From the NCBI GenBank assembly GCA_964406605.1, contig CAYOSF010000001.1, positions 212,303-276,302 on the forward strand: a stretch of DNA of 64,000 nt. Reading direction: 5' to 3'. Shown piece by piece: positions 5,709 to 62,598 of this stretch. The notes beneath the pieces are model-generated. The model searched no databases, was not told where the DNA came from, and saw only the letters and a program-made list of their open reading frames with translations. The DNA comes from an uncultured Dehalococcoidia bacterium. Lineage in GTDB: Bacteria; Chloroflexota; Dehalococcoidia; DSTF01; RBG-16-68-14. A program made the translations under genes and the position numbers. Within the stretch, counting starts at the first letter, position 1, and every line of letters starts with the position of its first letter.

Positions 5709-5789
5709 ACGGTCCGCCCCGAGACACGTTCTGCATCCTTGTGGACGCGCTCGGGTGAACGGCGGCAGGATCGTGGCGGTGACGGTGGA

Positions 5790-39300: not shown

Positions 39301-39314
39301 GATCCCTCCTCGAC

Positions 39315-39812: not shown

Positions 39813-40022
39813 CTCCTTGATCTGCCGGGGCGCCCAGCGGAACGGGAGGGCACCCCCTCACCTGCGCGTAATTCGATGAACGCGGCGACGTGAGGATACT
39901 ACCAACGTGGCGGCGCTGTCAATGAGATGCGCCCGTCCTTGGCCGGTGCGCCTGAGGTCCGAGCGCCGGGGCTGGGAACGATAGCTGTTCCAAGCGTGGG
40001 CCCGGCGCTCAAGCGGCGTCGC

Positions 40023-41159: not shown

Positions 41160-41345
41160 GGGGCTATTCTATCGGCAAAGGAGCGAAGCGGAACAGAGAA
41201 GGGACGAAGGCACGCGATTCCCGCGCCCGCCCTGCCGCCATCGCCCGGTTTGGGATAGGATAGCTCCGGGACACACTGCGCCCGCCTGTCTCTCGCGGAC
41301 ACGAATCGCGTACAAGGAGGGCGGGCCCGCTGGAAGGAGCTGACC

Positions 41346-44045: not shown

Positions 44046-44142
44046 CCGTCGGTGCGGGGCAGTACTAGAGAATTGACCCTCGCGTACCGGAAGCTCTCTT
44101 AGGCCGGCGGTCGCGCCCCGACGCGAGCCCCGCGGAGAGCAG

Positions 44143-45225: not shown

Positions 45226-45531
45226 GCCGCTTCGGTCCCTCGTGCGCCTGGTCTGCTACCTCCAGGGTGTTGGTCATGGACACCAGTGTACCGCTGACCG
45301 GCGCTTGACCGTCACCCGCGGTGTACTAGGTGGGTGCGCGTGCCTCCTTCTTTCAGTGTGGCTGCCGTGCGTGTCGCGTTCAATCGGGCAAAACACCACG
45401 TCGCGCGTCTCCCCAGATTCGAGACCGGGAGTCGACTATCGTCATGCATCCGGGCCACCGATCATCGCAGGCTCACTCTTCTTCTGCATCCTCCGCGATT
45501 TCACGCTCGTGCGGGGCAATCCCGTTCGCAC

Positions 45532-46881
45532 TCACCTACGCTGAGACTCTCGGACCTGGTCGACGGCAACGTCGATCGACTCCTCCAGCACGCCGGCGAG
45601 CATGTCGATTTCGTCCTCGCTGATGATGAATGGCGGTCCGATCAGGACCGCGTCCTGGACCGGGCCCGATCCGCCGGGATAGAAGAAGACGCCGCGCCCC
45701 AACCCCGCCACGACAGCCCTCATGGCTACATGATCCGATGCGGGGAACCGTTCCAGCGTTTCCCGGTCGCGCACCAACTCGATGCCCCACAGAAGGCCCA
45801 GTCCTCGGACCTGTGCGACGTTCGGGTGTCCTTCCAGCGACGAGAGACGGGCCCGGAGCACCTCTCCCATGGCTGCCGCTCGGGCCACCAGGTCCTCTCG
45901 TTCGAGGATTTCCAGGACTTTGTCAGCGACCGCGCACGCCGCCGAGTGTCCCGCGAAGGTGTAGAACATGGGGTCCTGCCCCTGCTCGGCGAGCGGGGCA
46001 ACCACACCGGCCGTCGCGTAGATCCCGCCGATGGGGGCGTAGCCTCCGGCAAGGCCCTTGCCTCCGACGATGATGTCCGGCACCACACCCCAGTGGTCGA
46101 CGCCGAACCGTCTGCCGGTCCGGCCGAAGCCGGTCATCACCTCGTCGGCGATGAGCAGCACCCCGTACCGATGGCAGATCTCGGCGACCCGCGGCCAGTA
46201 GCTTTGTGGAGGCACGAGCACACCGCCGGCGGCGCCCACGACGGGCTCGGCGATGAACGCGGCGACGGTGTCAGGACCTGCCTGCACGATCGCCTCCTCG
46301 AGCCCGTCCGCGGCGCGTTCCAGGCAGCCATCGGCGTGCTGGCCAAGGGAGCAGTCGAGGCAGTAGTGGGCGGGCGCTTTGGGGAAGTCGACGAGCAGCG
46401 GCTCGAACCCTTTCCGTCGGGACGCGTGCCCCCCTGCCGCGAGCGCGCCCAAGGTGATTCCGTGATAGGACAGCTCGCGGCCGATGACCTTCCAGCGCTC
46501 CGGCCTTCCCGCGGCGAGATGGTGTTGGCGCGCAAGCCGGATCGCCGCGTCCACGGATTCGGAACCTCCGCTGGTGAAGCCGACCCGGGTGAGGCCCTCC
46601 GGTAACCACCGGTCCACGAGGCGTTCGACCAACCGCACGCGCGCTTCGGTGGCGAAGGGCGGCACGACGTAGTCGACCTCGGCGAGGGCTCGCCCGGCCA
46701 CCTCCGCCACTTCGCTCCTGCCGTGCCCGATGTTGGAGACTATGGCGCCGCCCGCAGCATCGAGGATCTGCCGTCCGTCCGGCGTGATCAGGTAGACGCC
46801 TTCTCCGCTCTGGATGGCGAACGGAGGGCCGCTGCCGGGCACGAACGACATGCGGCGAAGACGCTCTGGATCCAAGATCAT
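45532..46881 (-). CDS. class-III (omega) aminotransferase, PLP-dependent
   Basis: The protein contains DEVMTGFGRTG and GGKGLAGG. The likely start is MILDPERL. Its ATG overlaps the amidase stop as ATGA. Confidence 0.85.
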   Translation of the reverse strand: MILDPERLRRMSFVPGSGPPFAIQSGEGVYLITPDGRQILDAAGGAIVSNIGHGRSEVAEVAGRALAEVDYVVPPFATEARVRLVERLVDRWLPEGLTRVGFTSGGSESVDAAIRLARQHHLAAGRPERWKVIGRELSYHGITLGALAAGGHASRRKGFEPLLVDFPKAPAHYCLDCSLGQHADGCLERAADGLEEAIVQAGPDTVAAFIAEPVVGAAGGVLVPPQSYWPRVAEICHRYGVLLIADEVMTGFGRTGRRFGVDHWGVVPDIIVGGKGLAGGYAPIGGIYATAGVVAPLAEQGQDPMFYTFAGHSAACAVADKVLEILEREDLVARAAAMGEVLRARLSSLEGHPNVAQVRGLGLLWGIELVRDRETLERFPASDHVAMRAVVAGLGRGVFFYPGGSGPVQDAVLIGPPFIISEDEIDMLAGVLEESIDVAVDQVRESQRR

Positions 46882-48377
46882 TGGCCGCCTCCTCGGTCGG
46901 TCTGTTCCTTTCCGGCCGGTGCGCTCTCCTTGGCCAGCGGCGGCCACCGGCCGGCCCAGGGCCGCGCCTCCTCAATCGCGGCGGACATGCGGAGGACGCC
47001 GACGTCATCTCCCAACCGCCCGACGATCTGGACCGCCAGCGGCAGACCGTTGCTGTGGAACCCGAACGGCACGGATGCCGCCGGGTTGCCGCTCGCGTTG
47101 AAGATGGGCAGGAAGCTACCCGGCCAGGGACGGCCTTCGCCGAACCGACGCCGCTCGTCGCAGCGAGGCGCGGTCAGCGCCATGACCGGCGCGAGCAGGA
47201 AATCGTGGTCGTCGAACCAGCGGTGGGTCGCTGCCGCCCACGCCTCACGAGCGCGGACAGCCAGGCTGTACTTCCAGGCCGGCGTGGCCGGGGCAGGCTC
47301 GATGATTCGCCTCGCATACCCGGTCAGCTGGTCGAAATGCTCCGGCAGATCGGGCCTGAGATGGACGGCCCAGGCGTACTCGTCCGGGCCCGTGGTGTCT
47401 GCGGTGCCTTCGATGGGCTCTAGCTGCGGAGGATTCGATTCCTTGATTTCGCAGCCGAAGTCGCGGAGCAGGTCGCTCGCGGCCAGAACCGCCTGCCCGA
47501 TCTCCGGGTCCGGCTCAATGTAGCCGTAGTCGAGGCTGAGGGCGACCCTGGTGCCCTGGAGCGACTGCGGTTCCAATGCGGCGAGGAAGTCCGGTGGGGT
47601 CTCAGTCATGGAGAGCGGGTCTCGCTCATGGGCGCCGGACGCCGCCTGCATGATGAGCGCAGCGTCGCGCACGGTCCGCGTCATGGGTCCCTGGTGCGAC
47701 GTGCGGGGGGCGCCTTTCCAGCCGTCGTGCGGGATCCGGCCAAAGGTCGGCTTCAGGCCGTAGATGCCGTTGTAGAACGAGGGAATCCTGATCGACCCGG
47801 CGCCATCCGTGCCGATCGCCAGGGGCCCAAGACCGGCCGCCACGGCCGCGCCGGCGCCGCCGCTGGAACCTCCGCAGGTATGGTCGAGGCTCCAGGGGTT
47901 GCGGCCATCGTTGCCCAGCTTGTTCATGGTCATGTCGATCAGGCCGAACTCCGGCGTATTGGTCTTGCCAAGGACGATCGCTCCCGCGGCCTGCACGCGC
48001 TCGACGACCGGCGCGCTATGGGACGAATAGTAGTCCTTGAATAGAAGAGAGCCGAAGGTGGTGGGCAGCCATGAGGTGTAGATCAGGTCCTTGATCGAGA
48101 TGGGCACTCCGCAGAGGAGAGGCTTCTCGCCAGGCTGGGCCCAGGTGCGCTCGGCCTCTTGCGCGGCCGCCATCGCGCCGTCGTGGTCGACCGCCAGGTA
48201 GGCGTTCAGTTTGGGGTTGAGGCGGGCTATCCGTTCCAGCGTGACGGCGGTGACTTCTGTAGGCGAGATCTCCCGCCGGCCGTACGCCGACATGAGCTCA
48301 GCGGCGGACAGGAACGCCACTTCTTCGGTCGACATGCTGTCTCCTCCCTTCGCCTCGGGTGGGCGAGCGGTTGTCAT
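46878..48377 (-). CDS. amidase-signature family amidase
   Basis: The protein contains GGSSGGAGAAVAAGLGPLAIGTDGAGSIRIPS (amidase signature) and the Ser-cisSer-Lys catalytic-triad context. An alternative start is at M15 (about 48335). Confidence 0.85.
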   Translation of the reverse strand: MTTARPPEAKGGDSMSTEEVAFLSAAELMSAYGRREISPTEVTAVTLERIARLNPKLNAYLAVDHDGAMAAAQEAERTWAQPGEKPLLCGVPISIKDLIYTSWLPTTFGSLLFKDYYSSHSAPVVERVQAAGAIVLGKTNTPEFGLIDMTMNKLGNDGRNPWSLDHTCGGSSGGAGAAVAAGLGPLAIGTDGAGSIRIPSFYNGIYGLKPTFGRIPHDGWKGAPRTSHQGPMTRTVRDAALIMQAASGAHERDPLSMTETPPDFLAALEPQSLQGTRVALSLDYGYIEPDPEIGQAVLAASDLLRDFGCEIKESNPPQLEPIEGTADTTGPDEYAWAVHLRPDLPEHFDQLTGYARRIIEPAPATPAWKYSLAVRAREAWAAATHRWFDDHDFLLAPVMALTAPRCDERRRFGEGRPWPGSFLPIFNASGNPAASVPFGFHSNGLPLAVQIVGRLGDDVGVLRMSAAIEEARPWAGRWPPLAKESAPAGKEQTDRGGGQ

Positions 48378-48575
48378 TATATCTCTTGACTCCCGCGCGT
48401 GCGGGGGTTGGCGTGCCTCTGCCGGACCGAGCCGCGTGTCGGGCCTGCCTGCTGGACAATGCCGGCAGCGCGTGATGAGAGGAGCGGTAGCCCATCAGCA
48501 CCGCTTCCTGTAGGCTGGGACTACGGTTGTCGATCGGCCGAAGACAGCAGGGAGACGAGCGACTTGGACAAGCAG

Positions 48576-49808
48576 ATGTTGCAGCGGGTGGACCTCGGGC
48601 CAAAGTCGCTTGGCCGCTACGAATCTGTCATCGGCTCAGAGGCCGTCGATGAACTGAGAGAGCTGGCGTCGCCTCTGCGCGGGGCGCGGCTCGCTCAGAT
48701 CAACGCGACATCGTATGGGGGCGGCGTCTCCGAGCTGCTGCGCTCCTTGGTACCCCTCTATCGCGCCCTGGGTCTGCAAGCTGAGTGGCTGGTCATACCT
48801 GGAAGCACGGAGTTCTTCACCATCGCGAAGGGCATCCACAACGCTCTCCAGGGCGCTGACTTTGACCTGACGGAGGAGGCCAAGGACATCTATCTGAAGC
48901 ACAAGGAGATGGTGGCCGGATCCTTCGAGGACTCCTACGACTACGTGATCGTGCACGACCCCGAGCCGGTCGGCCTGCGAGAGCTCCGCGGACGCGATGA
49001 GGCGCGCTGGATCTGGCGCTGTCACGTAGACGCTTCCGAGTCCAACCAGGAGGTACTAGCATTCCTCCTGCCGTTCATCGCCCAGTACGACGCCCTGGTG
49101 TTCACGATGGAGGAGTTTGTACCCGAGCAGCTTCGCGACCGGAAGCCCGTGATCATGCCACCCGGCATCGATCCGCTGAGCCCGAAGAACGTTGCCCTGC
49201 GTATCGACCTATGCCGGCAGATCCTGGAGTGGACGGGCGTCCGCCTGGACAAGCTGCTCATCACGCAGGTCTCCCGCTTCGACCCCTGGAAGGACCCGAT
49301 GGGCGTCATCGAGGTCTACCGCCACGTTCGCGAGGAGGTGCCCGACACCCAGCTAGCGCTCCTTGGCCAGATGGCGCTGGATGACGCGGGTGGATGGGAG
49401 ATGTACCGTGAGATCGTGGGGGAGACGTCCGGCGATCCTGATATCCACGTACTCACCAACTTCACCGGCGTCGGAAACGCGGAGGTGAACGCCTTCCAAT
49501 CGTCCTCTCAGGTGGTCCTGCAGAAGTCGATCCGGGAAGGATTCGGTCTTGCGGTGTCAGAGACGCTCTGGAAGGGCACGCCGGTCGTGGCGGGCCGGGC
49601 GGGAAGCATACCGCTGCAGATGCCCGAAGGCGTCGGCGGGTATCTCATTGACGACAACGACGACTGCGTGCAGAAGACTGTGCGGCTACTGCGCGATCCC
49701 AGGGAAGCGCGGGAGTTGGGCGTGGCGGGCCGGGCCCATGTACGGGAGCATTTCCTGATCACCAGGCTGCTTGCAGACGAACTTCGGCTTCTGGCGTCCC
49801 TCCGCTAG
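48576..49808 (+). CDS. GT4 (group 1) glycosyltransferase, TreT / sucrose-synthase-like
   Basis: The C-terminal motif reads EGFGLAVSETLWKGTPVVAGRAGS (E-x7-E). The N-terminal domain reads INATSYGGGVSELL. Confidence 0.8.
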   Translation: MLQRVDLGPKSLGRYESVIGSEAVDELRELASPLRGARLAQINATSYGGGVSELLRSLVPLYRALGLQAEWLVIPGSTEFFTIAKGIHNALQGADFDLTEEAKDIYLKHKEMVAGSFEDSYDYVIVHDPEPVGLRELRGRDEARWIWRCHVDASESNQEVLAFLLPFIAQYDALVFTMEEFVPEQLRDRKPVIMPPGIDPLSPKNVALRIDLCRQILEWTGVRLDKLLITQVSRFDPWKDPMGVIEVYRHVREEVPDTQLALLGQMALDDAGGWEMYREIVGETSGDPDIHVLTNFTGVGNAEVNAFQSSSQVVLQKSIREGFGLAVSETLWKGTPVVAGRAGSIPLQMPEGVGGYLIDDNDDCVQKTVRLLRDPREARELGVAGRAHVREHFLITRLLADELRLLASLR

Positions 49809-49965
49809 CGCTGCGACGGGTGATGCCGTAGGCTTCTGACGCGGCTGCCGCCGGCGTCGCCGATGGCGGACGCGCACCGCCTGTCCCGGACGTTCGCTCA
49901 CTGTTCAACTGATGGTGGGAATCGCTGCGACGCCACAGGCGCCCCGAGGATTCGCCCCCGATCCT

Positions 49966-50016
49966 TTGACGCGCCGGCCGGCCCGCGCTATAGTTATTAT
50001 GAACACTGGTTCATAA
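49966..50016 (+). promoter_or_regulatory. strong sigma70-type promoter carrying a GAAC-N4-GTTC (Cheo/LexA-type) operator at the predicted transcription start
   Basis: The promoter is TTGACG (49966-49971), a 17-nt spacer, and TATAGT (49989-49994). It is immediately followed by the perfect palindrome TTATGAAC-ACTG-GTTCATAA (49997-50016), inside a local AT-rich island. Confidence 0.45.
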
Positions 50017-50275
50017 CTTAACAGAGCAACAGGGCGGGACCGTAGAAGCGCCGATGAGTGGTCAATGTCTCACGGGTCTTGCCGAATGGAGAAGTCAAGC
50101 AGCCAGCGACGGGTAGGACCGGCGGCGCCACGAGCCGGATCTTCCGAGCCGAGTGGCTGCCACGTGGTCGCGACCGACCCGGAGGAGGAGCCCGAGACGG
50201 CCGACGAAGAGGACGGCGCGAATGGCGAGCAGCGGCCGCACACCGCTGCCCTGAGACGGCTGCGGAGGTGAAGAG

Positions 50276-51943
50276 ATGATGTCAGAGCCGACGGTCGATG
50301 AGGAACTCGGTGTCGCAGTCGCCCAGCCGCCCCCCTGCATAGCTACGAGCCTGCGCGACATCGGCCGGGTGCGGGCGCAGCTCGCCGACCTGCACCCGGC
50401 GCGGTTCATGCCGCTGCCATACCCCTACAACACCCCGGAGGACCAGTTCTCGATCAAGCCCTTGACCGAGAGCGCGCGGCAGAACTTGGAGTGCGACCTG
50501 GACGGCACGTGCGCCATCCAGATCCCCAGGCCGAGCAGCAGGGCGCAGGAAGAGGAGTTGGTCCGGAAGTTCATCAACGGGCTGAGGAAGCTATTCTCCG
50601 CCGACGACAACTGGACCTTCCTGGGGCCGCTGATGCTCCGGCTGGACTACTGCGCCAAGTGCCAGACGTGCGCCGACGCGTGCCCGGTCTATGTTTCGAG
50701 CGGCCGGGAGGAGATCTACCGGCCGACGTACCGGTCGGAGATCTTCCGGCGGATCGTGAAGAAGTATGTGATGCCGGGGGGATTCCTGAGCGGGCTGACG
50801 GTCGGGGACATCGACCTGAACTGGCAGACACTGGCCCGGCTGGCGGAGCTGTCATATCGCTGCACCGTCTGCCGTCGCTGCGCCAAGGTGTGCCCTCTGG
50901 GCATCGGCAACGCCATGATCACTCGTGAGATCCGGAAGGTATTCAGCCAGGAGTTGGGGATAGCACCTGACGAGCTGCACCGGCTGGGCACGGTCCAGCA
51001 ACTGGAGACCGGCTCGAGCACGGGCATGATACCGGCGGCGTTCGCGGACACGGTGGAGTTCATGGAGGAGGACGTGGAGGATCGGGCGGGGATGAAGTTC
51101 AAGTGGCCGGTGGACAAAGAGGGGGCGGATGTGCTGCTGATCCACAATGCGGGCGAGTTCCTGTCGTGGCCGGAGAACGCGGAGGCGTTCGCGATCATTT
51201 TGGAGGCGGCGGGTGTCAGCTACACGCTCTCCAGCGAGCTTCTGGGATACGATTCTGTCAACTATGGCGTCTGGTACGACGATTTCCAGTTTGCGCGCGT
51301 GGCGCTGAAACACGCGGAGGTCGCGAAGAAGCTGGGCGTGAAGAAAATCGTCATAGGAGAGTGCGGCCATGCTCACAAAGCGCTTGCCGTCGTAGCGGAC
51401 CGAGTGCTGCCGCCCGAGCTGAACATCCCACGAGAGAGCTGCTTCACGTTCCTGGAGGACATTGTCGAGAGCGGCCGCTTGAAGCTGGACCCGGAGCGGA
51501 ACAACTTCCCCGTGACCCTCCACGACCCCTGCAACATCGTGAGACTGATGGGTGTGGTGGAGCCGCAGCGGAGGATTCTGCGCAAGATCGCGCCCCAGTT
51601 CCGGGAGATGTACCCGAACCGGACGGAGAACTACTGTTGCGGCGGCGGCAGCGGGTTCGCAGTCATCCAGGGACTCAACTTCCCGGACTGGCGGTCGGCA
51701 ATCGGCGGGAGGATGAAGTTCAAGCAGGTGCTGGAGGCATTCCAGGACACCAGGATTGACGATGAGTCCGTCGCCAAGTACGTGTGCTCACCTTGCTCCA
51801 ACTGCAAGGGTCAGTTCAGAGGCATCTACGAGTACTTCGATGCGACGAACAGGTGCGGTCTCCAGTACGGCGGCCTGGTGGAGTTGATCGTCAACGCCAT
51901 GGTGGACATGCCGAAGCCGTTCATGGAGTGGCAGCAGGAGTAG
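50276..51943 (+). CDS. Fe-S oxidoreductase of the HdrD/GlcF/GlpC family (two 4Fe-4S ferredoxin motifs and two CCG domains)
   Basis: The protein contains CAKCQTCADACP, CTVCRRCAKVCP and two Cys-rich CCG-type repeats (CGHAHK, CCGGGSG, CSPCSNCKGQ). A GGAGGTGA Shine-Dalgarno precedes the ATG. Confidence 0.8.
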   Translation: MMSEPTVDEELGVAVAQPPPCIATSLRDIGRVRAQLADLHPARFMPLPYPYNTPEDQFSIKPLTESARQNLECDLDGTCAIQIPRPSSRAQEEELVRKFINGLRKLFSADDNWTFLGPLMLRLDYCAKCQTCADACPVYVSSGREEIYRPTYRSEIFRRIVKKYVMPGGFLSGLTVGDIDLNWQTLARLAELSYRCTVCRRCAKVCPLGIGNAMITREIRKVFSQELGIAPDELHRLGTVQQLETGSSTGMIPAAFADTVEFMEEDVEDRAGMKFKWPVDKEGADVLLIHNAGEFLSWPENAEAFAIILEAAGVSYTLSSELLGYDSVNYGVWYDDFQFARVALKHAEVAKKLGVKKIVIGECGHAHKALAVVADRVLPPELNIPRESCFTFLEDIVESGRLKLDPERNNFPVTLHDPCNIVRLMGVVEPQRRILRKIAPQFREMYPNRTENYCCGGGSGFAVIQGLNFPDWRSAIGGRMKFKQVLEAFQDTRIDDESVAKYVCSPCSNCKGQFRGIYEYFDATNRCGLQYGGLVELIVNAMVDMPKPFMEWQQE

Positions 51944-52266
51944 GAGGCCGCTGCAAACGGGAGCGAGAATGATGCCACCACGGCATGGATGTCTCGCTCA
52001 CCATCCACTTCGGCGCGGGGCTGTCGGACAGCTTGCCGCGGCCGGACTCGAACGGTGAATAGCGGGCCGGCGGTCCTTGCCCGCGCCTGCCGATCATGTG
52101 CTACAGTCGTCGCTGACCGGCCAAGGAGCCTTTCCGGGCGGTTGACGTTGGGCGCCTGGGGCTAGAAGGGAGTGGCCTGGCTTCCTGCAATGCCTAGTGA
52201 CGCCGGCACGCAGGATGACAGGTTGTGATGGGTTCAGATGGTCTGTTGCGCCCAAGGAGGTGGAGC

Positions 52267-53745
52267 GTGACCGCGAGACACTTGGTGGCCCTCGCTGCTC
52301 TGGCACTCACGCCTGCCGTGATCGTTGCGTCGGCTTCGTTGTGGCTGGGACCCGCCGCGGCGACCGGGGGCAACGCCATCGAGTCGCCGGACACCGCGGG
52401 CTTCGTCGGCTTCTTCAGCTCGGTGGCGCTCGACGAGATGGGCTACCCGGTCGTCAGCTACTACGACATGACGAATGGTGATCTGAAGGTCCTGCACTGC
52501 AACGATGCGAATTGCAGCGGCGGCGACGAGACCATCACCTCGCTCGACACGGACGGTGACGTGGGCCAGTACACCTCGCTGGCACTGGACGGGAGCGGCT
52601 ACCCGGTCGTCAGCTACTACGATGCCAGCAATGGAGACCTGAAGATGCTGCACTGCAACGACCCGGATTGCAGCGGCGGCGACGAGAGCGTCACCTCGCC
52701 CGACACAGGCGGTGACGTGGGCCAGTACACCTCGCTGGCGCTGGACGGGAACGGAAACCCGGTCGTCAGCTACTGGGACGTCGCGAACGGTGACCTGAGG
52801 GTGCTGCACTGCAACGACCCGGACTGCAGCGGCGGAGACGAGAGCACTACGTCGCCCGACACCGTGGGCGTTGTCGGCTGCTTCACCTCGCTAGAGCTGG
52901 ACGCGAGCGGCCACCCAGTCGTCATCTACCGAGACGGCAGCAATGTGGATCTGAAGGTTCTGCACTGCGACGATCCGAATTGCGGCAGCGGTGGCGACAG
53001 CATCACGTCGCCCGATACTGTCGGCTACGTCGGCTACTCGGGCTCACTTGAGCTGGACGCGAGCGGCAACCCGGTGGCCAGCTACTACGACGGCACCAAC
53101 GGCGACCTCAAACTGATGCACTGCAACGACCCGAACTGCAGCGGAGACGATGAGAGCATCGTCTCACCGGACACAGGAGGGGACGTGGGCATGTTCACCT
53201 CGCTGGCGCTGGACGCGAGCGGCAACCCGGTCGTGGGCTACTACGACGCCACGAACGAGGATCTGAAACTGCTCCACTGCGGCGACGCCGATTGCACCTC
53301 ATCCAACACGCTGGTCTCACCGCACTCGGCCGGCTCCGTGGGCCAGGATACGTCTCTCACCCTGGATGGGAGCGGCAACCCAGTGGTTACGTATCATGAC
53401 GCGCCTGACTTCGATCTGTGGGTCCTTCATTGCGGCAACCCTACCTGCACGAAGGAGGCAGCCACACCCAGCCCGACCCCAACGTCCACCCCGACGCCGG
53501 CACCCGGCGGCGACGTGAACTGCGACGGCGGCGTGAACAGCATCGATGCGGCCCTTGTCCTCCAGTATGACGCCGCCGTTATCGGTTCGCTGCCCTGCCA
53601 AGAGGCCGCCGATGCAAGCCGGGACGGCGTCATCAATAGCATCGATGCCGCACTCATCCTGCAGCTTGAGGCGGGACTGATACCATCCCTGCCGTCGCAG
53701 AGAGGCGGGTCGACCGTGGCCGGCGAAATGCAGCGACGACCATGA
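52267..53745 (+). CDS. secreted repeat protein with a signal peptide, seven ~52-aa Cys-paired repeats (a putative beta-propeller), a Pro/Thr linker and a C-terminal dockerin domain
   Basis: An AAGGAGG Shine-Dalgarno lies 6 nt before a GTG start (MTARHLVALAALALTPAVIVASASLW). The repeat unit is VGxxTSLALDxSGNPVVSYYDxxNGDLKVLHCNDPxCSGGDExxTSPDTxGD, and the DNA periodicity is about 156 bp across roughly 52375-53455. A PTPTSTPTPAP linker follows. The end of the protein carries two dockerin-like Ca-binding segments, DVNCDGGVNSIDAALVLQ and DASRDGVINSIDAALILQ. Confidence 0.7.
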   Translation: MTARHLVALAALALTPAVIVASASLWLGPAAATGGNAIESPDTAGFVGFFSSVALDEMGYPVVSYYDMTNGDLKVLHCNDANCSGGDETITSLDTDGDVGQYTSLALDGSGYPVVSYYDASNGDLKMLHCNDPDCSGGDESVTSPDTGGDVGQYTSLALDGNGNPVVSYWDVANGDLRVLHCNDPDCSGGDESTTSPDTVGVVGCFTSLELDASGHPVVIYRDGSNVDLKVLHCDDPNCGSGGDSITSPDTVGYVGYSGSLELDASGNPVASYYDGTNGDLKLMHCNDPNCSGDDESIVSPDTGGDVGMFTSLALDASGNPVVGYYDATNEDLKLLHCGDADCTSSNTLVSPHSAGSVGQDTSLTLDGSGNPVVTYHDAPDFDLWVLHCGNPTCTKEAATPSPTPTSTPTPAPGGDVNCDGGVNSIDAALVLQYDAAVIGSLPCQEAADASRDGVINSIDAALILQLEAGLIPSLPSQRGGSTVAGEMQRRP

Positions 53746-55510: not shown

Positions 55511-58500
55511 CTACCGGAAGCTGTGCGTGCGCTCGTGGGGCACGCGGGCGTCATCGAGCGGCAGCCGCTCCATGCGCTGCGTGACGACGTTGACCGCGCG
55601 CTCCTGCCGCTCGATGTGGCCGTGGACGATGAGGGCGCCCGCCTCGGTGACGAGCTGCTTGTAGCGCCGGACCAGGCCCGGGTTGGTGATGACGTTGATC
55701 AGCCCGTAGCGGTCTTCCAGCGTGTGGAAGACGAATCCCTTCGCGGTCTCCGGCGCTTGGCGGACGGCGACGAAACCGGCGACCGTCACCTTCGTTCCGT
55801 GTTCGAGCCGCTCGACGATGTGGCTGGGCGTGATGCCTTCGTGCAATGCGCCCGTGGCCAGGTCCGTGATGTGGCCGCGCGTGGAGACGGCGCCCTCCGT
55901 GAGGACGAGGTCCTCGCGCACCCGCTCGCCGTCGTTCATCTCCAGTAGCGTCACCATCTCGGCTTCGTAGGGGAGAGCGAGGGGAGACTGCGCGCCCAGG
56001 GGCTGGTAAAAGAGACCGAGCTGCCAGAGCAGCTCTCGCTCGTGGAGTCCGGTGAAGGCGAAGGCGCCGAGACGGATCAAGTGTTCGATCGGCTCCCGGG
56101 GGAGGCGGGTGCGATGCCAGAAGTCCCAGAGGGAGAGGTAGAGGCCCCGATCTGAGCTTGCCGAACCGTTGTGTCCCGGCGGAGTGTAGTGGGTGCTCTG
56201 GGCAGCGGGCTCCTCCGTCATTCTGAGCGCCAGCGAAGGATCCGGCCTTTGTGGAGAGGAGGCTTTCGAAGGGCTAGACCCTTCGCTTCGCTCAGGGTGA
56301 CCGAGGGTTTGATGCGCCTCCTCGTCCAATCGCTTGAGGGCCGCCTCGCCGATTCCCTTGACATAATTGAACCCGAGACGGATCGCATCATCTTTCCCCT
56401 CGGCGGGCGGGCTCTCGATGATGCATTCCGAGCGGCTGCGGTTGACGTCGACGCCCAGGATCTCGACGCCGTTGCGGCGCGCCTCGTTGACGACGACGCC
56501 GGGGCTGTAGAAGCCGAAGGGCCACTCGTTGAGCCAGGCGCAGTAGAACTCCAGTGGGTAGTAGCGCTTCACCCAGGCGAGCTTGCCGGCCGTCTCCGCC
56601 ATCGCCGCGGCGTGCGCCTTGGGGAAGCCGAACTCGGCGAAGGCGAGGATCTTGCCGAAGATGCGCTGGGCCGTCGCCTCGTCCACCAGGCCCTTCTGGC
56701 GGGCGCTCTCCAGGAACGTCTCCCGCAGCCGCTCCATCTCCTCCCGCGAGCGCTTGCGACTCATCGCGCGGCGCAGGCTCTCGGCCTGGCCCGCCGTGAA
56801 GCCGGCGACGGCCATCGCTACCTCCAGGACCTGCTCCTGGAAGACGATGACGCCTTTGGTCTCGCTCAAGATCGGCTCCAGGCACTCGTGGTCATAGGTG
56901 ACCGGCTCCGCGCCCTGGCAGCGCAGGATGTAGGGGTTGACGGCGCCGCCCTGGATGGGACCAGGCCGGATGAGGGCGACCTGGATCACCAGGTCCTCGA
57001 TGGAGCTGATCTTGAGGCGCAGGATCGCCTGGAGCTGGGCGCGGCTCTGGATCTGGACGATACCCAGGATGTCGCCGCGCTGGATCATCTCATAGACCTG
57101 CGGGTCGTCGAGGGGGACGCGCACGGGGTCGATGCGGCGGCCGTGGCGCTCCTCGATGAGCTGGAGGGAGCGGTAGAGGTGGCCCAGGCTGGGGTAGCCG
57201 AGGAAGTCCATCTTGATGAAGCCGGCGTCGGCCACGGAGTCCTTGTCCCACTGGCAGATGTAGCGGCCGTCCATAGCCGAGGGCTGGACCGGCACCTGCT
57301 CGACGATCGGGGTGCTGGAGATGATGACGCCGCCGGAGTGCTGGCTGAGGTGGCGGGGCTTGCCGCGCAACTCCTCTACCAACCGCACGAACTCGCGCCA
57401 GACCGGCGCGTGCATCCGGCTCCGGAACTCAGGCATCGCCTGCATCTCCTCGACCAGGGAGTGAGCGAAGCGACGCCGCATCCGTTTGGCCAGCTTGTCG
57501 ACGTCGGCCTCCGGCAGCCCCAGGGCTTTGCCCACGTCGCGGATCGCCATCGGGTAGCGATAGGTGATGACGTTGGCGACGAGCGCCGCCCGCTCCGTGC
57601 CGTAGGTGGCGAAGACGTGCTCGAACATCCGCTCGCGGGCGTCGCGGGCGAAGTCGAGGTCGATGTCGGGCACGTCCTCCTTCTGGCGGGCTTCATTGAG
57701 GAAGCGGCCGACGAAGAGATCGTACTTGATCGGGTCGATGCCGGAGAGTCCCAGCAGGTAGCAGACCAGAGACCCGACGGAGGAGCCCCGGCCCCGGGCC
57801 GGCAGCTCGTGTTCGTGGGCGTAGCGCATCAGCTCCCAGTTGCGCAGGAAGAAGCCGGCCTGGCCGGCCTGCCGGATCAGGTCCAGCTCGTGGCGGAGTC
57901 GATCTTTCACTTTGGGCGCGGCCCAGCCGTAGAGCTCGCGGGCGCTGGCGAGGCAGACCTCCTCGAGGAACTCGTCGGCTGTCCTGCCCGCGGGCGCTTC
58001 GAAGTCGGGAAAGCGATAGGTCAGGTCGCGGGTGAGGTCAAAGCCCTGCCCTGAGCTTGTCGAAGGGGCCTGGGGCGCGCCCTGAGCGAAGCCGAAGGGC
58101 GGCTGGTTGTTATTCTCTGGGGTGGGGTTGGCGCTGTAGGGGCCGGATTCTTCGCTTCGCTCAGAATGACAGTTGGGAACGCAGCGCTCGGCGATGACGA
58201 GGGTGTTGCTGATCGCCTCCGGCAGGTCGGCGAAGAGGGCGGTCATCTCCTGCGGCGGCTTCAGGTAGAACTCCGCGTTCTTGCGACGCAGCCGCTCCGA
58301 GGCGTCCAGCGTGGTGCGGTGGCGCACGGCCACCAGCACGTCCTGAAGTCGATGGCGGGCGCGCTCGTGGTAGTGGACGTTGTTGGTGGCGACGACGCCC
58401 AGGCCGAGATCCCGGGCCAGCGCCACGAGGCCCCGGTTGCGGGGCCGGTCGCCGTAGACCAAGTTGTCCTGGAGCTCGATCCAGAAGCCCTCCCGGCCGA

Positions 58501-59002
58501 ACAGATCCAGGTAGCGGCCGGCGGCCCGGTGCGCGCCTTCGATGTCTCCGGCGGCGACGAGGCGGGGCACCTCGCCCTGCCGACAGCCGGAGAGGGCGAT
58601 GAGCCCCTCGGTGTGTCCGGCGAGGGCTTCCGGGTCGAGGACGGGCTCGTCACGCGGGCTGGAGAGATGGGCCTGCGAGAGGAGGCGGCTCAGGTTGGCG
58701 TAGCCGCGCGGCGTCTCAGCGAGCAGAGTGAGGTGATGACTTGTAGGGGCGCACGATTGTGCGTCCCTACCTGGCGATGTGCCACCACGAAGGGTCACCT
58801 CGGCGCCGATGATCGGGCGGACGCCCCACTCCTTGGCCGCCTGGGCGAACTCCATTGCGCCGGCCAGGCCGTCGTGGTCGGTGAGCGCAAGCGCCGGGTA
58901 GCCGAGCCGGCGCGCCTCGAGCACCAGTTCGAGCGGCGTGGAGGCGCCTTCCCGGAAGGAGAAGCAGGAATGGCAGTGGAGCTCAACGTAGGATGTGTTC
59001 AT
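55511..59002 (-). CDS. dnaE2: DnaE-type DNA polymerase III alpha subunit, probably the error-prone DnaE2/ImuC type, carrying two in-frame repeat-element insertions
   Basis: The PHP domain reads MNTSYVELHCHSCFSFREGASTPLELV, followed by the pol-beta-like and finger regions and an OB-fold near the C-terminus (HTLEDRYGLINVITNP). The protein ends about 20 aa after the OB-fold with no tau-binding tail. Its native length after removing about 100 inserted residues is about 1060 aa. A catalytically dead imuB-type Y-family polymerase gene lies 2.3 kb away. The DnaE2 assignment is inference with confidence about 0.6; the DnaE-family call is solid. Confidence 0.85.
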   Translation of the reverse strand: MNTSYVELHCHSCFSFREGASTPLELVLEARRLGYPALALTDHDGLAGAMEFAQAAKEWGVRPIIGAEVTLRGGTSPGRDAQSCAPTSHHLTLLAETPRGYANLSRLLSQAHLSSPRDEPVLDPEALAGHTEGLIALSGCRQGEVPRLVAAGDIEGAHRAAGRYLDLFGREGFWIELQDNLVYGDRPRNRGLVALARDLGLGVVATNNVHYHERARHRLQDVLVAVRHRTTLDASERLRRKNAEFYLKPPQEMTALFADLPEAISNTLVIAERCVPNCHSERSEESGPYSANPTPENNNQPPFGFAQGAPQAPSTSSGQGFDLTRDLTYRFPDFEAPAGRTADEFLEEVCLASARELYGWAAPKVKDRLRHELDLIRQAGQAGFFLRNWELMRYAHEHELPARGRGSSVGSLVCYLLGLSGIDPIKYDLFVGRFLNEARQKEDVPDIDLDFARDARERMFEHVFATYGTERAALVANVITYRYPMAIRDVGKALGLPEADVDKLAKRMRRRFAHSLVEEMQAMPEFRSRMHAPVWREFVRLVEELRGKPRHLSQHSGGVIISSTPIVEQVPVQPSAMDGRYICQWDKDSVADAGFIKMDFLGYPSLGHLYRSLQLIEERHGRRIDPVRVPLDDPQVYEMIQRGDILGIVQIQSRAQLQAILRLKISSIEDLVIQVALIRPGPIQGGAVNPYILRCQGAEPVTYDHECLEPILSETKGVIVFQEQVLEVAMAVAGFTAGQAESLRRAMSRKRSREEMERLRETFLESARQKGLVDEATAQRIFGKILAFAEFGFPKAHAAAMAETAGKLAWVKRYYPLEFYCAWLNEWPFGFYSPGVVVNEARRNGVEILGVDVNRSRSECIIESPPAEGKDDAIRLGFNYVKGIGEAALKRLDEEAHQTLGHPERSEGSSPSKASSPQRPDPSLALRMTEEPAAQSTHYTPPGHNGSASSDRGLYLSLWDFWHRTRLPREPIEHLIRLGAFAFTGLHERELLWQLGLFYQPLGAQSPLALPYEAEMVTLLEMNDGERVREDLVLTEGAVSTRGHITDLATGALHEGITPSHIVERLEHGTKVTVAGFVAVRQAPETAKGFVFHTLEDRYGLINVITNPGLVRRYKQLVTEAGALIVHGHIERQERAVNVVTQRMERLPLDDARVPHERTHSFR
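56217..56301. mobile_element. MITE-like palindromic element (copy B) inserted in-frame in dnaE2
   Basis: The plus-strand sequence is GTCATTCTGAGCGCCAGCGAAGGATCCGGCC...CCCTTCGCTTCGCTCAGGGTGAC. The terminal inverted repeats are about CCCTGAGCGAAGCGAAGG. The element is read through as HPERSEGSSPSKASSPQRPDPSLALRMTEE in the polymerase. Confidence 0.6.
58045..58172. mobile_element. MITE-like palindromic element (copy A, opposite orientation to B, with a partial extra TIR copy) inserted in-frame in dnaE2
   Basis: The coding-strand sequence is GTCATTCTGAGCGAAGCGAAGAATCCGGCC...CCCTTCGGCTTCGCTCAGGG. This gives about 85% identity to copy B over the ends. It is read through as CHSERSEESGPYSANPTPENNNQPPFGFAQGAPQAPSTSSG, between the conserved AERC and FDLTRDLTYRFP segments. 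Confidence 0.6.
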
Positions 59003-59067
59003 CGGTATACAGTGATGCCGATCTGGTATATACTAATGGTGACCTTGTATTAACTGAGAGGTGCATC

Positions 59068-59343: not shown

Positions 59344-59347
59344 TCCC

Positions 59348-59767: not shown

Positions 59768-59924
59768 TGGCTCTCGCAGGAGACCCAGCGGTGTCGAGGC
59801 GTTCTGCCAGAGGGAGAAGCAGCGGCAGTGAAGTTGGCCGTAGGTCACGGATCAATGATAGCGAACACATGTTCTATCCGCAACCCCGACGGGACGGCAT
59901 TGCAGTAGGGGATACCGCTCAGCC

Positions 59925-61119: not shown

Positions 61120-61410
61120 TCACCCATACCGCTGCTCCCACCACGATCCCTTGATCTCGTCTCGGAACGCGGTCACCACGCGACCGTCCTCCAGCAGCAG
61201 CTCGTAGTAGGTGCGGGAGACGGGCTCCGCCGTCCACCAGCGGTCGTCCGTCCGGTAGCGGTCCAGCACCTCGTCCACCCCTAGCCAGCGACCGTTGCGC
61301 AGGAGCGCGCTCGGGGCGCCGTCGACGCCCGCGCGCACCTCGACCTGCCGGGGAGCGTTCAGGCGTCGTAGGGTAGGAGGGCGTTCCGCTCCTCCGGGTG
61401 TCGGGACCAC
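61120..61410 (-). CDS. small Trp-rich ORF overlapping the imuB 3' end by 52 nt; probably the detached C-terminal domain of ImuB (frameshift or split gene)
   Basis: The 96-aa ORF lies in a different frame and ends in ...RWWTAEPVSRTYYELLLEDGRVVTAFRDEIKGSWWEQRYG. The ImuB-like ORF is about 100-130 aa shorter than typical ImuB proteins. A GTG start is also possible just after the imuB stop. Confidence 0.4.
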   Translation of the reverse strand: MVPTPGGAERPPTLRRLNAPRQVEVRAGVDGAPSALLRNGRWLGVDEVLDRYRTDDRWWTAEPVSRTYYELLLEDGRVVTAFRDEIKGSWWEQRYG

Positions 61411-62531
61411 GGGTCCACCTCCTCGATGCGCCAGATCATCGGCCGGCCGTAGCGGGCGCGGAGCTGCCGGATGGCCTCGGCGATCTGGTTGAGGTTCTGC
61501 TTCGTGTCGTTGAAGAGCTTGGCCTGCTTCGCCACCTCCCGGCCGATACCGGTCAGGGTGACGGTGACGGTATCGACGGCCTGGGGCAGCTCCAGCAGCG
61601 CCAGGCGGGTCTTGAGCACGAGTGTCATGAGGCGCTCGTCCCCGGTGGGCTCCCGGAACGTCTCGAACCGCTCCCAGACGATGCGCTCCTCGGCCAGGAG
61701 CTGGACGTGCATGCGGCGCGCCGTGCGCCCTCGCAGGCGGCGGACCAGGCGCGCCAGGAGCTGCCGGCCGGCCATCGTCAGCGCCTCCGTCGTCGCCACG
61801 GGAGCATCGAAGCTCAGCCGGTCGCTGAGCGCCTGCTGGCGCTTGCGGGGGTGGAGCGGCTCCTCATCGATGCCGCTGGCCAGCTCCCAGAGGCGCTTGC
61901 CGGCGCGGCGGAACTGCGCCTCGACGGACGGCTGGGGCAGGGCGGCGACGTCGCCCAGCGTGCGTAGGGCGAGCAGATCGAGTCGTTGTATGACATCCAG
62001 ATCGAAGGGGAGGAGGGAGACGTCCTTGTCCTGAAGGAACTCCTGCTCGTGGCCTTTCGGGACGACGCCGGCATCGCCCGGAGGGGTGATGGACGCGGCG
62101 GCCCAGGCGACGAACTTCCCTTCCGCGATGCCGGTGCCGGCGAGCAGGCCCGTCGCCCGGCGGGCCGCTTCGACCAAGTCTCCGGCCAGGACGAACTCGT
62201 CCTCGTAGTGGCCCTGGAGCCCTTGTATGTCGGCGTAGGCGCAGCCGAGCCCGGCGGGCTCGACCTGAGGAGCGACGTCCTCCAGACCGTCCAGCATCGC
62301 CTCGAACGCGGCGCGGTAGAGGGCGTGGTCGGCATCGATGAAGGCGGCGTGTGGGCAGAGGGCCTTCGCCTGCCGGAGCGGCAGCCCTTCGCAGACTCCC
62401 GCGGCGTCGGGCGACGCGTCGAGGACGGTGTGCCGGTCGTAGACGATGACCGGTCCGCCCGTGGTGGACGGGTCTCGCAGCGATTCCACCACGACGGCGA
62501 AGGAGGGGATGAGGACGCAGGCGATACGCAC
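61359..62531 (-). CDS. imuB: catalytically inactive Y-family polymerase, ImuB-like
   Basis: It has the Y-family fold. The N-terminal MRIACVLIPSFAVVVE replaces the DinB catalytic D-x-D (VDMDCFFAAVE). LGCAYADI replaces the S-(L/I)-D-E-A-Y-L-D acidic pair. A GTG start has a GGGAG Shine-Dalgarno. Confidence 0.75.
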   Translation of the reverse strand: MRIACVLIPSFAVVVESLRDPSTTGGPVIVYDRHTVLDASPDAAGVCEGLPLRQAKALCPHAAFIDADHALYRAAFEAMLDGLEDVAPQVEPAGLGCAYADIQGLQGHYEDEFVLAGDLVEAARRATGLLAGTGIAEGKFVAWAAASITPPGDAGVVPKGHEQEFLQDKDVSLLPFDLDVIQRLDLLALRTLGDVAALPQPSVEAQFRRAGKRLWELASGIDEEPLHPRKRQQALSDRLSFDAPVATTEALTMAGRQLLARLVRRLRGRTARRMHVQLLAEERIVWERFETFREPTGDERLMTLVLKTRLALLELPQAVDTVTVTLTGIGREVAKQAKLFNDTKQNLNQIAEAIRQLRARYGRPMIWRIEEVDPWSRHPEERNALLPYDA

Positions 62532-62569: not shown

Positions 62570-62598
62570 ATTATATCAGAACGAATGTTCCATAGCAA
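62570..62598 (-). promoter_or_regulatory. sigma70-type promoter with an embedded LexA-type Cheo box upstream of imuB
   Basis: On the minus strand the sequence is TTGCTA, then TGGAACATTCGTTCTGA (17 nt), then TATAAT. The spacer contains the palindrome GAAC-ATTC-GTTC (plus strand AGAACGAATGTTCC, 62578-62591). This matches CGAACRNRYGTTYC in 12 of 14 positions. Confidence 0.6.

What the first reader, a model, noticed from the sequence alone, without database searches (positions are those of the whole stretch)
49966..50275. Second GAAC-N4-GTTC operator placed exactly at the start site of a near-consensus promoter, followed by a 260-nt leader ahead of an HdrD-like Fe-S gene
The promoter TTGACG-N17-TATAGT (49966-49994) is followed within 3 nt by the perfect 20-bp palindrome TTATGAAC-ACTG-GTTCATAA, in a conspicuously AT-rich island of a roughly 68% GC genome. 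Its core matches the LexA-type box upstream of imuB. The transcript would run about 260 nt before the Fe-S oxidoreductase ATG at 50276. That leader could carry a small SOS-induced ORF, for example a division inhibitor: a candidate of about 68 aa with a basic N-terminus and an acidic C-terminus lies at 50065-50271. It could also be a regulatory leader RNA.
Basis: seen in the sequence. Interest (0 to 1): 0.6.

Follow-up and report, generated by a model that had tools for sequence, protein, structure and literature searches.

The report
Repressor-gated promoter before orphan dsrK-like gene
A strong promoter with a 20-bp palindromic repressor site at its predicted start point sits in front of an iron-sulfur reductase gene of an uncultured Dehalococcoidia bacterium; the site may be a DNA-damage (LexA) switch, but this is unproven, and the proposed small gene or structured RNA in the long leader has no support.

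Summary
The sequence features are real. TTGACG-N17-TATAGT (49966-49994) is one of only six near-consensus promoters in the window, against 0.8 expected. The perfect palindrome TTATGAAC-ACTG-GTTCATAA (49997-50016) starts 3 nt after the -10 box. Its GAAC-N4-GTTC core occurs only three times in 64 kb, always between genes. The other two copies are genuine LexA boxes: they are conserved before imuB in nine related Dehalococcoidia loci and before an ICMT-family gene in one relative.

LexA is therefore the leading reading (about 0.45), but three results weaken it. Every confirmed LexA half-site in this group has A, G or C before GAAC (usually AGAAC...GTTCT), whereas this site has T on both sides. 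TGAAC-N4-GTTCA is also the core of SmtB/ArsR operators. None of 93 homologous loci carries the site; most close relatives have a dsrM-like membrane gene there instead.

The 68-aa ORF has no homologue, poor codon statistics, no hydrophobic segment and was not called by a gene finder. The roughly 275-nt leader matches no Rfam family and folds no better than shuffled sequence.

Verdict: a lineage-specific, repressor-controlled promoter placed ahead of an orphan DsrK-like gene. It is a new member of a known kind and of modest interest.

The parts
49966..49971 (+). -35 hexamer TTGACG
   Evidence: Part of one of 6 near-consensus promoters in the window against 0.8 expected.
49989..49994 (+). -10 hexamer TATAGT, with a 17-nt spacer from the -35 box
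49997..50016 (.). Perfect 8-4-8 palindrome TTATGAAC-ACTG-GTTCATAA, the putative operator. It spans about -4 to +16 relative to the predicted start site.
   Evidence: A unique match with up to 3 mismatches, against 0.03 expected.
50001..50012 (.). GAAC-N4-GTTC core (LexA/Cheo-box type). With its flanks it reads TGAA-N6-TTCA, the SmtB/ArsR type.
   Evidence: 3 in the window against 0.73 expected; TGAA-N6-TTCA is unique in the window; all exact cores are intergenic.
50017..50275 (+). Predicted 5' leader, purine-rich and 67% G+C. No recognisable RNA family, structure or terminator.
   Evidence: No homology to the dsrM 3' ends of relatives.
50065..50271 (+). Its stop codon lies 4 nt before the dsrK-like ATG.
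   Evidence: no homologues; the single E=4e-4 hit is a low-complexity repeat protein; not called; codon score -0.014; GRAVY -1.23, no hydrophobic segment; no Pfam match.
50264..50271 (+). Shine-Dalgarno sequence GGAGGTGA of the dsrK-like gene
   Evidence: Conserved CGGAGGT in relatives.
50276..51943 (+). DsrK/HdrD-like Fe-S oxidoreductase gene (555 aa; 4Fe-4S dicluster domain plus CCG cysteine-rich domain). In this genome it lacks the dsrM-like partner.
   Evidence: Fer4_8, CCG; best NCBIfam match DsrK, 327.9 bits, below the 400-bit cut-off; relatives carry a NarI/DsrM-like gene directly upstream; no dsrM in the window.
62579..62590 (.). Reference LexA box GAAC-GAAT-GTTC, inside the spacer of the imuB promoter TTGCTA-N17-TATAAT (minus strand, 62598-62570)
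   Evidence: Conserved in the imuB promoters of L095-L105.
59863..59874 (.). Third GAAC-N4-GTTC box (CGAAC-ACAT-GTTCT), about 50 nt upstream of the ICMT-family gene at 59925-60605
   Evidence: Conserved upstream of the ICMT orthologue in L097.
61359..62531 (-). imuB-like Y-family polymerase gene, used as the SOS reference target
55511..59002 (-). dnaE2, the error-prone DNA polymerase gene
   Evidence: (NF004225, 946.6 bits against a 939-bit cut-off).

Best explanation
This is a lineage-specific sigma-70-type promoter (TTGACG-N17-TATAGT) that transcribes an orphan dsrK/hdrD-like Fe-S reductase gene through a roughly 275-nt untranslated leader. The promoter may also transcribe the two co-directional genes downstream. 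It is gated by a dimeric repressor bound to the 20-bp palindrome that covers the predicted start site (about -4 to +16). Bound repressor would block open-complex formation or promoter escape, and loss of the repressor would release transcription.

The most likely repressor is LexA, acting through its GAAC-N4-GTTC box, so that RecA-stimulated self-cleavage after DNA damage would induce the gene. That would make this a third SOS-type operator in a 12.6-kb stretch that also holds the imuB and ICMT boxes.

Shown: the sequence elements, their rarity, their geometry, the LexA-box status of the identical core at imuB, and the loss of dsrM.

Inferred: the transcription start, repression, the identity of the repressor, and the absence of a coding or structural function in the leader.
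For: The promoter quality is rare in this 66% G+C window: 6 sites against 0.8 expected, and the others sit just upstream of genes.

The exact GAAC-N4-GTTC core occurs only 3 times in 64 kb, and all three are intergenic with A+T-rich flanks. One copy lies in the spacer of the imuB promoter. There the arrangement -35, GAAC-N4-GTTC, -10 is kept in seven related Dehalococcoidia loci, and two more (L103, L105) keep the same layout with AGTAC or AGCAC in the upstream half-site. A second copy is kept before the ICMT orthologue in L097. The core therefore marks the LexA regulon in this group.

This agrees with the published Gram-positive LexA consensus GAACN4GTTC/CGAACN4GTTCG (PMC4234289; PMC3091678). 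From my own memory, it also agrees with Fernandez de Henestrosa et al. 2002, J Bacteriol 184:6073, on Dehalococcoides LexA.

Two of the six strong promoters in the window overlap two of the three cores. No terminator lies between the promoter and the gene. The gene start is fixed by a conserved Shine-Dalgarno sequence and start codon. LexA control of redox or Fe-S enzymes has a precedent in the cyanobacterial hox hydrogenase genes (PMC3091678).
Against: The base next to the core is T on both sides (TGAAC...GTTCA). In 22 half-sites of confirmed boxes from this group it is A 17 times, G 3 times, C twice and never T, and the downstream half is always GTTCT. These sites come from only two independent promoters, so the sampling is thin. 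In C. difficile, sites of the TGAAC type were among the weakly bound, non-core sites (PMC4234289).

The spacer ACTG does not fit the RNRY pattern of the Cheo box (from memory), whereas the other two boxes do.

The symmetry extends to 8+8 bp, beyond what the confirmed boxes show. The same core with T/A flanks is a proven SmtB/ArsR operator (PMC8790569).

The target has no known role in DNA damage. None of 93 homologous loci has the site. The 275-nt leader is much longer than at the other strong promoters in the window (about 25-75 nt) and remains unexplained. No lexA gene is present in the window.
Confidence: 0.45

Rival explanations
1. The palindrome is the operator of a different dimeric repressor encoded elsewhere in the genome, and the match to the LexA core is a shared-motif coincidence. 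The best candidate is an SmtB/ArsR-family winged-helix regulator that recognises TGAA-N6-TTCA (12-2-12 type). Induction would then follow a metal, redox or sulfur signal rather than DNA damage.
For: The proven Anabaena nmtA operator AATACCTGAACA-GA-TGTTCAAGTATT contains exactly TGAAC-N4-GTTCA. [quoted passage not shown] The site here matches TGAACA-NN-TGTTCA at 11 of 12 positions, and TGAA-N6-TTCA is unique in the window. The T/A flanks and the 20-bp symmetry fit this family better than they fit the LexA boxes of this group. In the related MAG W31_80 an ArsR-family gene (HTH_5/HTH_20) lies directly upstream of a dsrK-like copy (L006). A thiol or sulfur redox enzyme is a more natural target for such a sensor than for LexA.
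Against: No ArsR-family gene was found in the window (tblastn with the L006 ArsR; the Pfam searches covered only part of the ORFs). The outer arms (TTATTA / TAACTT) do not match the AATAnn...nnTATT arms of 12-2-12 operators. The promoter of the ArsR gene in L006 carries a different palindrome (TGTGA-N6-TCACG) and no TGAAC-N4-GTTCA. No metal-handling gene is nearby. Two genuine LexA boxes with the identical core lie within 12.6 kb.
Confidence: 0.27
2. The promoter is real, but the palindrome is a chance or relic inverted repeat in the A+T-rich promoter patch and no protein binds it. The gene is expressed constitutively from a promoter acquired when dsrK was separated from dsrM.
For: An arbitrary 8-N4-8 perfect inverted repeat is expected about once per 64 kb (64000/4^8, my arithmetic). 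GAAC-N4-GTTC alone is expected 0.73 times per window, and 3% of shuffles reach 3 copies. The site is not conserved anywhere else. Its flanks and spacer depart from the LexA boxes of this group.
Against: The joint placement of an exact core within a few nt of one of six strong promoters has a chance of roughly 1e-3. All three exact cores are intergenic, whereas 20 of the 24 one-mismatch variants lie within coding sequence. Perfect 20-bp symmetry centred on the start site is typical of operators.
Confidence: 0.13
3. The regulated product is in the leader. It would be either a 68-aa SOS-induced protein (50065-50271) translationally coupled to dsrK, or a non-coding RNA.
For: The leader is unusually long (about 275 nt). 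The second half of the ORF has gene-like codon statistics (score 0.49) and three-base periodicity. Its stop codon lies inside the Shine-Dalgarno sequence of dsrK, 4 nt before the ATG.
Against: There is no homologue among 5.8 billion proteins. Among 1.84 billion representatives there is one spurious low-complexity hit. There is no Pfam match, and the ORF was not called on the identical Logan contig. The whole-ORF codon score of -0.014 is below 99% of real-gene windows, and the first half scores -0.52. No Shine-Dalgarno sequence precedes any candidate start, and there is no hydrophobic segment, unlike known SOS division inhibitors. There is no Rfam hit, the fold z-score is 0.11, and there is no terminator.
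Confidence: 0.07

Closest known systems
Gram-positive/Chloroflexi-type LexA operator (Cheo box, GAAC-N4-GTTC; B. subtilis CGAACN4GTTCG)
   Same: It has an exact GAAC-N4-GTTC core, overlaps a sigma-70-type promoter, has A+T-rich surroundings, and shares its core with the conserved imuB and ICMT boxes of the same genome (consensus from PMC4234289 and PMC3091678).
   Different: The flanks are TGAAC...GTTCA instead of the group's [A/G/C]GAAC...GTTCT. The spacer is ACTG rather than RNRY. The perfect symmetry extends to 20 bp. The box lies downstream of the -10 box rather than in the spacer. The target is a DsrK-like Fe-S reductase, not a repair gene. The site is not conserved in relatives.
SmtB/ArsR-family 12-2-12 operators (for example Anabaena nmtA AATACCTGAACA-GA-TGTTCAAGTATT; ziaA, czr and smt operators)
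   Same: [quoted passage not shown] An ArsR-family gene precedes a dsrK-like copy in L006.
   Different: The outer arms do not match AATA...TATT. There is no arsR gene or metal gene nearby. The ArsR promoter in L006 has a different palindrome.
LexA control of non-repair redox genes in cyanobacteria (hoxEFUYH hydrogenase, crhR)
   Same: It would be a LexA-family regulator acting on a redox or Fe-S enzyme gene in a related bacterial lineage (PMC3091678; PMC1524924).
   Different: The cyanobacterial motif is AGTAC-N4-GTACT, and LexA there can act as an activator and may not respond to DNA damage. Nothing of this kind is shown here.
DsrMK / HmeCD-type membrane-bound heterodisulfide-reductase-like modules
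   Same: The gene product has the DsrK/HdrD architecture (Fer4 dicluster plus CCG), and its best NCBIfam match is DsrK. Close relatives (81-86% identity) are encoded directly after a NarI/DsrM-like gene, and in L001 TauE and DsrC-like genes lie nearby.
   Different: Here the dsrM partner is missing from the locus and from the window, the score is below the DsrK cut-off (327.9 against 400 bits), and the gene has its own promoter and a long leader.

Membership tests
LexA operator (GAAC-N4-GTTC type) | Exact inverted GAAC / GTTC tetramers separated by 4 nt | tested here: met
   GAACACTGGTTC at 50001-50012.
LexA operator (GAAC-N4-GTTC type) | Flanking bases as in confirmed boxes of the same group (A, G or C before GAAC; GTTCT on the downstream side) | tested here: not met
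   The site has T on both sides. T occurs in 0 of 22 half-sites in the imuB and ICMT boxes of the window and L095-L105. Those sites come from only two independent promoters.
LexA operator (GAAC-N4-GTTC type) | Overlap with the core promoter or start site, so that binding represses | tested here: met
   The palindrome starts 3 nt after the -10 box. The start site itself is predicted, not mapped.
LexA operator (GAAC-N4-GTTC type) | Conservation upstream of orthologous genes | tested here: not met
   No GAAC-N4-GTTC lies upstream of the gene in any of 93 homologous loci. The relatives have a different upstream gene, so this test is weak.
LexA operator (GAAC-N4-GTTC type) | LexA binding in vitro or in vivo, and induction by DNA damage | not testable with these tools
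   Requires EMSA, ChIP or transcriptomics. There is no lexA gene in the window.
SmtB/ArsR 12-2-12 operator | TGAA-N6-TTCA core (TGAACA-NN-TGTTCA in Zn-sensor operators) | tested here: met
   TGAACA-CT-GGTTCA matches 11 of 12 positions, and TGAA-N6-TTCA is unique in the window. Reference operator from PMC8790569.
SmtB/ArsR 12-2-12 operator | Outer arms of the 12-mers (AATAnn ... nnTATT) | tested here: not met
   The left 12-mer is TTATTATGAACA and the right 12-mer is GGTTCATAACTT, compared with Table 2 of PMC8790569.
SmtB/ArsR 12-2-12 operator | A cognate arsR/smtB gene or a metal-handling gene at the locus | tested here: not met
   tblastn with the L006 ArsR finds nothing in the window. No HTH_5/HTH_20 domain was found in the window ORFs that were scanned, but not every ORF was scanned.
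SOS-induced small division inhibitors (YneA, SidA, ChiZ type) for the 68-aa ORF | A real, conserved small protein, usually with a membrane segment | tested here: not met
   No homologues. Maximum 15-residue hydropathy is -0.08 and GRAVY is -1.23. Codon score is -0.014. Not called by a gene finder.
Known cis-regulatory leader RNA (any Rfam family) | A match to a covariance model, or folding stability above background | tested here: not met
   No hit at gathering thresholds. With E up to 10 only chance eukaryotic and sRNA hits far below their thresholds. Minimum free energy -107.8 against -108.4 for shuffles, z = 0.11.
Rex operator (TTGTGAA-N4-TTCACAA) | Half-site TTGTGAA with N4 spacing | tested here: not met
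   The site reads TTATGAA-N6-TTCATAA, which has the wrong spacing. There are no Rex-like sites in the window with up to 3 mismatches.
DsrK (NF045796) for the downstream gene | Score above the curated cut-off, and a DsrM partner | tested here: not met
   327.9 bits against a 400-bit cut-off. No dsrM in the window. The domain architecture Fer4_8 plus CCG is present, so the protein is DsrK/HdrD-like.

The most novel reading that the evidence does not exclude
The roughly 275-nt leader is not inert. It would encode an orphan, damage-induced, highly acidic 68-aa protein (50065-50271). Its stop codon sits inside the ribosome-binding site of the dsrK-like gene, so that LexA would co-induce a new small protein and a thiol or sulfur Fe-S reductase. 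That would be an SOS output with no described counterpart.
Probability: 0.06. Interest if true: 0.55.

Novelty: new member of a known kind. Interest (0 to 1): 0.27.

Why it matters
If LexA does bind here, the SOS regulon of an uncultured Dehalococcoidia lineage has taken in a DsrK/HdrD-type Fe-S disulfide reductase. That would add to the evidence that LexA regulons are plastic, and it would hint at a link between DNA damage and thiol or sulfur redox chemistry in anaerobes.

The analysis also carries a methodological caution. The GAAC-N4-GTTC core used to call LexA boxes in Gram-positive-type genomes is shared with SmtB/ArsR operators, so the flanking bases and conservation must be checked before a gene is assigned to the SOS regulon.

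By itself the locus is a single, unconserved site in one metagenome-assembled genome, so its wider importance is limited.

Tried and rejected
- **Orthologous spacer.** I looked for the same spacer in other genomes. The genome scan gave 34 loci and the metagenome scan 59 loci. A protein search with the neighbouring TreT gene found only the window's own genome at 100% identity, with the next hit at 74%. The exact-protein look-up returned one identical Logan contig. No genome with the same TreT-to-dsrK junction exists in these collections, so a phylogenetic footprint of the leader was impossible.
- **Leader as a decayed dsrM remnant.** Rejected: tblastn, tblastx and local DNA alignments score no better than shuffles.
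- **Small ORF.** Word-indexed and full HMMER searches, Pfam and codon scoring were all negative.
- **Structured RNA or riboswitch.** Rfam at gathering and permissive thresholds, and folding against shuffles, were negative. No terminator or attenuator was found.
- **Rex operator.** Rejected on spacing.
- **Deinococcus RDRM/DdrO motif.** The outer TTATG...CATAA matches from memory, but the spacing is N10 rather than N7, so I rejected it.
- **PadR (ATGT-N8-ACAT), FNR/CRP and Fur-type motifs.** Considered from memory. The half-sites or spacing do not fit.
- **Shared operator with paralogue loci.** I looked for one in L003 and L006 and found none.
- **LexA boxes near related cassettes.** I looked before the dockerin and SRAP genes next to dnaE2 in relatives, which could have made the window site orthologous. 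I found none.
- **Literature.** The 2002 Dehalococcoides LexA paper is not held in the library, so that point rests on my memory.

Full report
**What is in the sequence.** The finding lies in a 467-nt spacer between two genes. Upstream is a trehalose-synthase-type glycosyltransferase gene that ends at 49808; its called product is 410 aa. Downstream is a 555-aa Fe-S protein gene that starts at 50276.
- TTGACG at 49966-49971
- a 17-nt G+C-rich spacer
- TATAGT at 49989-49994
- the perfect inverted repeat TTATGAAC-ACTG-GTTCATAA at 49997-50016, which begins three bases after the -10 box

The Fe-S gene start is fixed by a GGAGGTGA ribosome-binding site, by an in-frame stop at 50252-50254, and by alignment with the starts of relatives.

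**Is it more than chance?** The promoter scan finds one site in the 1.1-kb region against 0.1 expected. My own scan of the whole window finds six sites with at least 10 of 12 consensus matches against 0.8 in composition-preserving shuffles, and most of the others sit just upstream of genes. GAAC-N4-GTTC occurs three times, at 50001, 59863 and 62579, against 0.73 expected. All three are intergenic, whereas 20 of the 24 one-mismatch variants lie within coding sequence. The 20-bp palindrome is unique even with three mismatches allowed, against 0.03 expected. Two of the six strong promoters overlap two of the three exact cores. The window is 66.4% G+C. The A+T-rich patch covers only 49989-50025 (27% G+C), and the leader itself is 67% G+C and purine-rich.

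**Organism and the SOS context.** The closest relatives of the Fe-S protein (81-86% identity) are from Dehalococcoidia (Chloroflexota) MAGs. The window also carries dnaE2 (55511-59002, minus strand; above the NCBIfam cut-off for the error-prone polymerase) and an imuB-like Y-family polymerase gene (61359-62531, minus strand).

The box at 62579 lies in the spacer of a TTGCTA-N17-TATAAT promoter for imuB. I fetched imuB homologues and their contigs. Seven related loci keep the layout -35 (TTGACA, TTGCTA or TTGTCA), then [A/G]GAAC-N4-GTTCT, then -10. Two more distant loci keep the same layout but have AGTAC or AGCAC in the upstream half-site.

The third box (CGAAC-ACAT-GTTCT, 59862-59875) lies about 50 nt upstream of an ICMT/PEMT-family methyltransferase gene. 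It is conserved before the orthologue in L097.

GAAC-N4-GTTC is therefore the LexA-type box of this group. This agrees with the published Gram-positive consensus (PMC4234289; PMC3091678). It also agrees with my recollection of the 2002 J Bacteriol paper on Dehalococcoides LexA, which the library does not hold.

**The downstream gene.** The protein has a 4Fe-4S dicluster domain and a CCG cysteine-rich domain. Its best NCBIfam match is DsrK at 327.9 bits, below the 400-bit cut-off. The description HdrD/DsrK-like is therefore fair.

In L001, L002, L004, L005 and L035-L038 the gene is directly preceded by a NarI/DsrM-like membrane gene, except that L038 has a spacer of about 300 nt. L001 also carries TauE and DsrC-like genes nearby. 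In the window there is no dsrM. The gene is orphaned and has acquired a new upstream region. Such orphaning recurs: L006 has an ArsR-family gene upstream, and L003 a ferredoxin-like gene. The L006 copy is 95% identical to the dsrM-linked copy in the same MAG. None of the 93 homologous loci has GAAC-N4-GTTC upstream of the gene.

**The leader and the small ORF.**
- The 68-codon ORF (50065-50271) has no homologue in the 5.8-billion-protein index.
- A full HMMER scan of 1.84 billion representatives gave one hit at E = 4e-4, to a low-complexity repeat protein.
- It has no Pfam match.
- A gene finder did not call it on an identical Logan contig.
- Its codon-usage score is -0.014, below 99% of same-length windows from real genes and typical of stop-free off-frames. 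Only its acidic second half looks gene-like, which GAG/GAC-rich sequence would produce anyway.
- It has no hydrophobic segment and no obvious ribosome-binding site. The second point is weak, because several real genes here also lack one.
- The leader matches no Rfam family at curated or permissive thresholds, folds no better than shuffles (z = 0.11) and has no terminator.
- It is not a recognisable relic of dsrM.

The one feature that keeps a coding reading alive is that the ORF's stop codon lies inside the dsrK ribosome-binding site.

**Who binds the palindrome?** LexA is the obvious candidate, but three results argue for caution.

First, the base next to the core is T on both sides. In 22 half-sites of confirmed boxes from this group it is A 17 times, G 3 times, C twice and never T, and the downstream half is always GTTCT. 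These half-sites come from only two independent promoters. In C. difficile, TGAAC-type sites belonged to the weakly bound non-core set.

Second, TGAAC-N4-GTTCA is the core of SmtB/ArsR 12-2-12 operators. [quoted passage not shown] The site here matches TGAACA-NN-TGTTCA at 11 of 12 positions, and TGAA-N6-TTCA is unique in the window. An ArsR-family gene precedes a dsrK-like copy in L006.

Third, a DsrK-like enzyme is not a DNA-damage function.

Several results count against the ArsR reading. No ArsR gene was found in the window. The outer arms do not fit the 12-2-12 consensus. The ArsR promoter in L006 carries a different palindrome. Two genuine LexA boxes with the same core lie within 12.6 kb.

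**Conclusion.** The most likely description is a lineage-specific, repressor-gated sigma-70-type promoter that was placed ahead of a dsrK-like gene after it lost its dsrM partner. My estimates for the regulator are:

| Reading | Probability |
|---|---|
| LexA operator | about 0.45 |
| Operator of another regulator, SmtB/ArsR-like or unknown | about 0.27 |
| Non-functional palindrome | about 0.13 |
| Regulated product lies in the leader (small protein or RNA) | about 0.07 |

The small-ORF and leader-RNA ideas are not supported. This is a new member of a known kind (an operator at a promoter), unconserved and in a single MAG, so its interest is modest.

The most useful general point is that GAAC-N4-GTTC alone does not identify a LexA site. 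The decisive tests are a genome-wide LexA motif built from the full 471-kb contig and the rest of the MAG, LexA and ArsR binding assays on the 49980-50030 probe, and start-site and damage-induction data.

Noticed in passing
window 59862-59875 and 59925-60605; L097 2047-2868; L103 11503-12009: A LexA-type box (CGAAC-ACAT-GTTCT) lies about 50 nt upstream of an ICMT/PEMT-family membrane methyltransferase gene. It is conserved before the orthologue in L097. In L103 a PEMT-family gene sits between imuB and dnaE2. This methyltransferase seems to be a recurrent companion of the SOS mutagenesis cassette in Dehalococcoidia.
   Followed up: partly
window 61120-61410 (-); L095-L105 directly after imuB: A conserved 72-102-aa ORF with no Pfam or NCBIfam match follows or overlaps the 3' end of imuB in every relative examined. 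It is probably an undescribed partner of the ImuB-like polymerase.
   Followed up: no
L103 about 9935-9960; L105 about 9935-9960 (imuB promoters): The upstream half-site of the imuB box is AGTAC in L103 and AGCAC in L105, while the downstream half stays GTTCT. AGTAC is the cyanobacterial LexA half-site, so these look like intermediates between the Gram-positive and cyanobacterial motifs.
   Followed up: no
window 58993-59767 (+); L100 11492-12180; L102 11417-12102: A MazE/AbrB-type antitoxin plus PIN-domain toxin pair is inserted between imuB and dnaE2 in the window and in two relatives. In the window, dnaE2 is thereby separated from the imuB promoter, and it has no GAAC-N4-GTTC box in its own upstream region.
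   Followed up: partly
L094 (identical to window 39166-50415): The only other assembly of this region (Logan, SRR14802572) is 100% identical but stops 139 nt into the dsrK-like gene. An assembly break there would be expected if the sample holds a second, near-identical dsrK copy, perhaps the dsrM-linked one.
   Followed up: no
L006 2440-3001: In MAG W31_80 an ArsR-family gene with Cys residues in the positions expected for a BigR/SqrR-like sensor (my reading) directly precedes a dsrK-like copy. That copy is 95% identical to the MAG's dsrM-linked copy (L002). The ArsR promoter has TGTGA-N6-TCACG between TTGACA and the -10 region.
   Followed up: partly
window 5226-6380 (+): Adjacent DinB_2-superfamily and YdjM (PF04307) genes. 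From memory, YdjM is a LexA-regulated membrane protein in E. coli. No GAAC-N4-GTTC box, even with one mismatch, lies in their upstream region.
   Followed up: partly
window 49892-49906: GTTC-N7-GTTC, a direct repeat of the alphaproteobacterial LexA type, lies about 60 nt upstream of the -35 box. About two such matches are expected per window by chance, and the motif is not used in this phylum, so I regard it as coincidence.
   Followed up: no
window 52225-53745 (+); L102 17907-18521; L103 15882-16934: A dockerin-domain protein gene lies near dnaE2 in the window and in two relatives (only a faint Pfam hit in the relatives). In L103 it is followed by an SRAP (SOS-response-associated peptidase) gene, and in the window by an S9 peptidase gene. 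No LexA box was found upstream of the genes in the relatives.
   Followed up: partly
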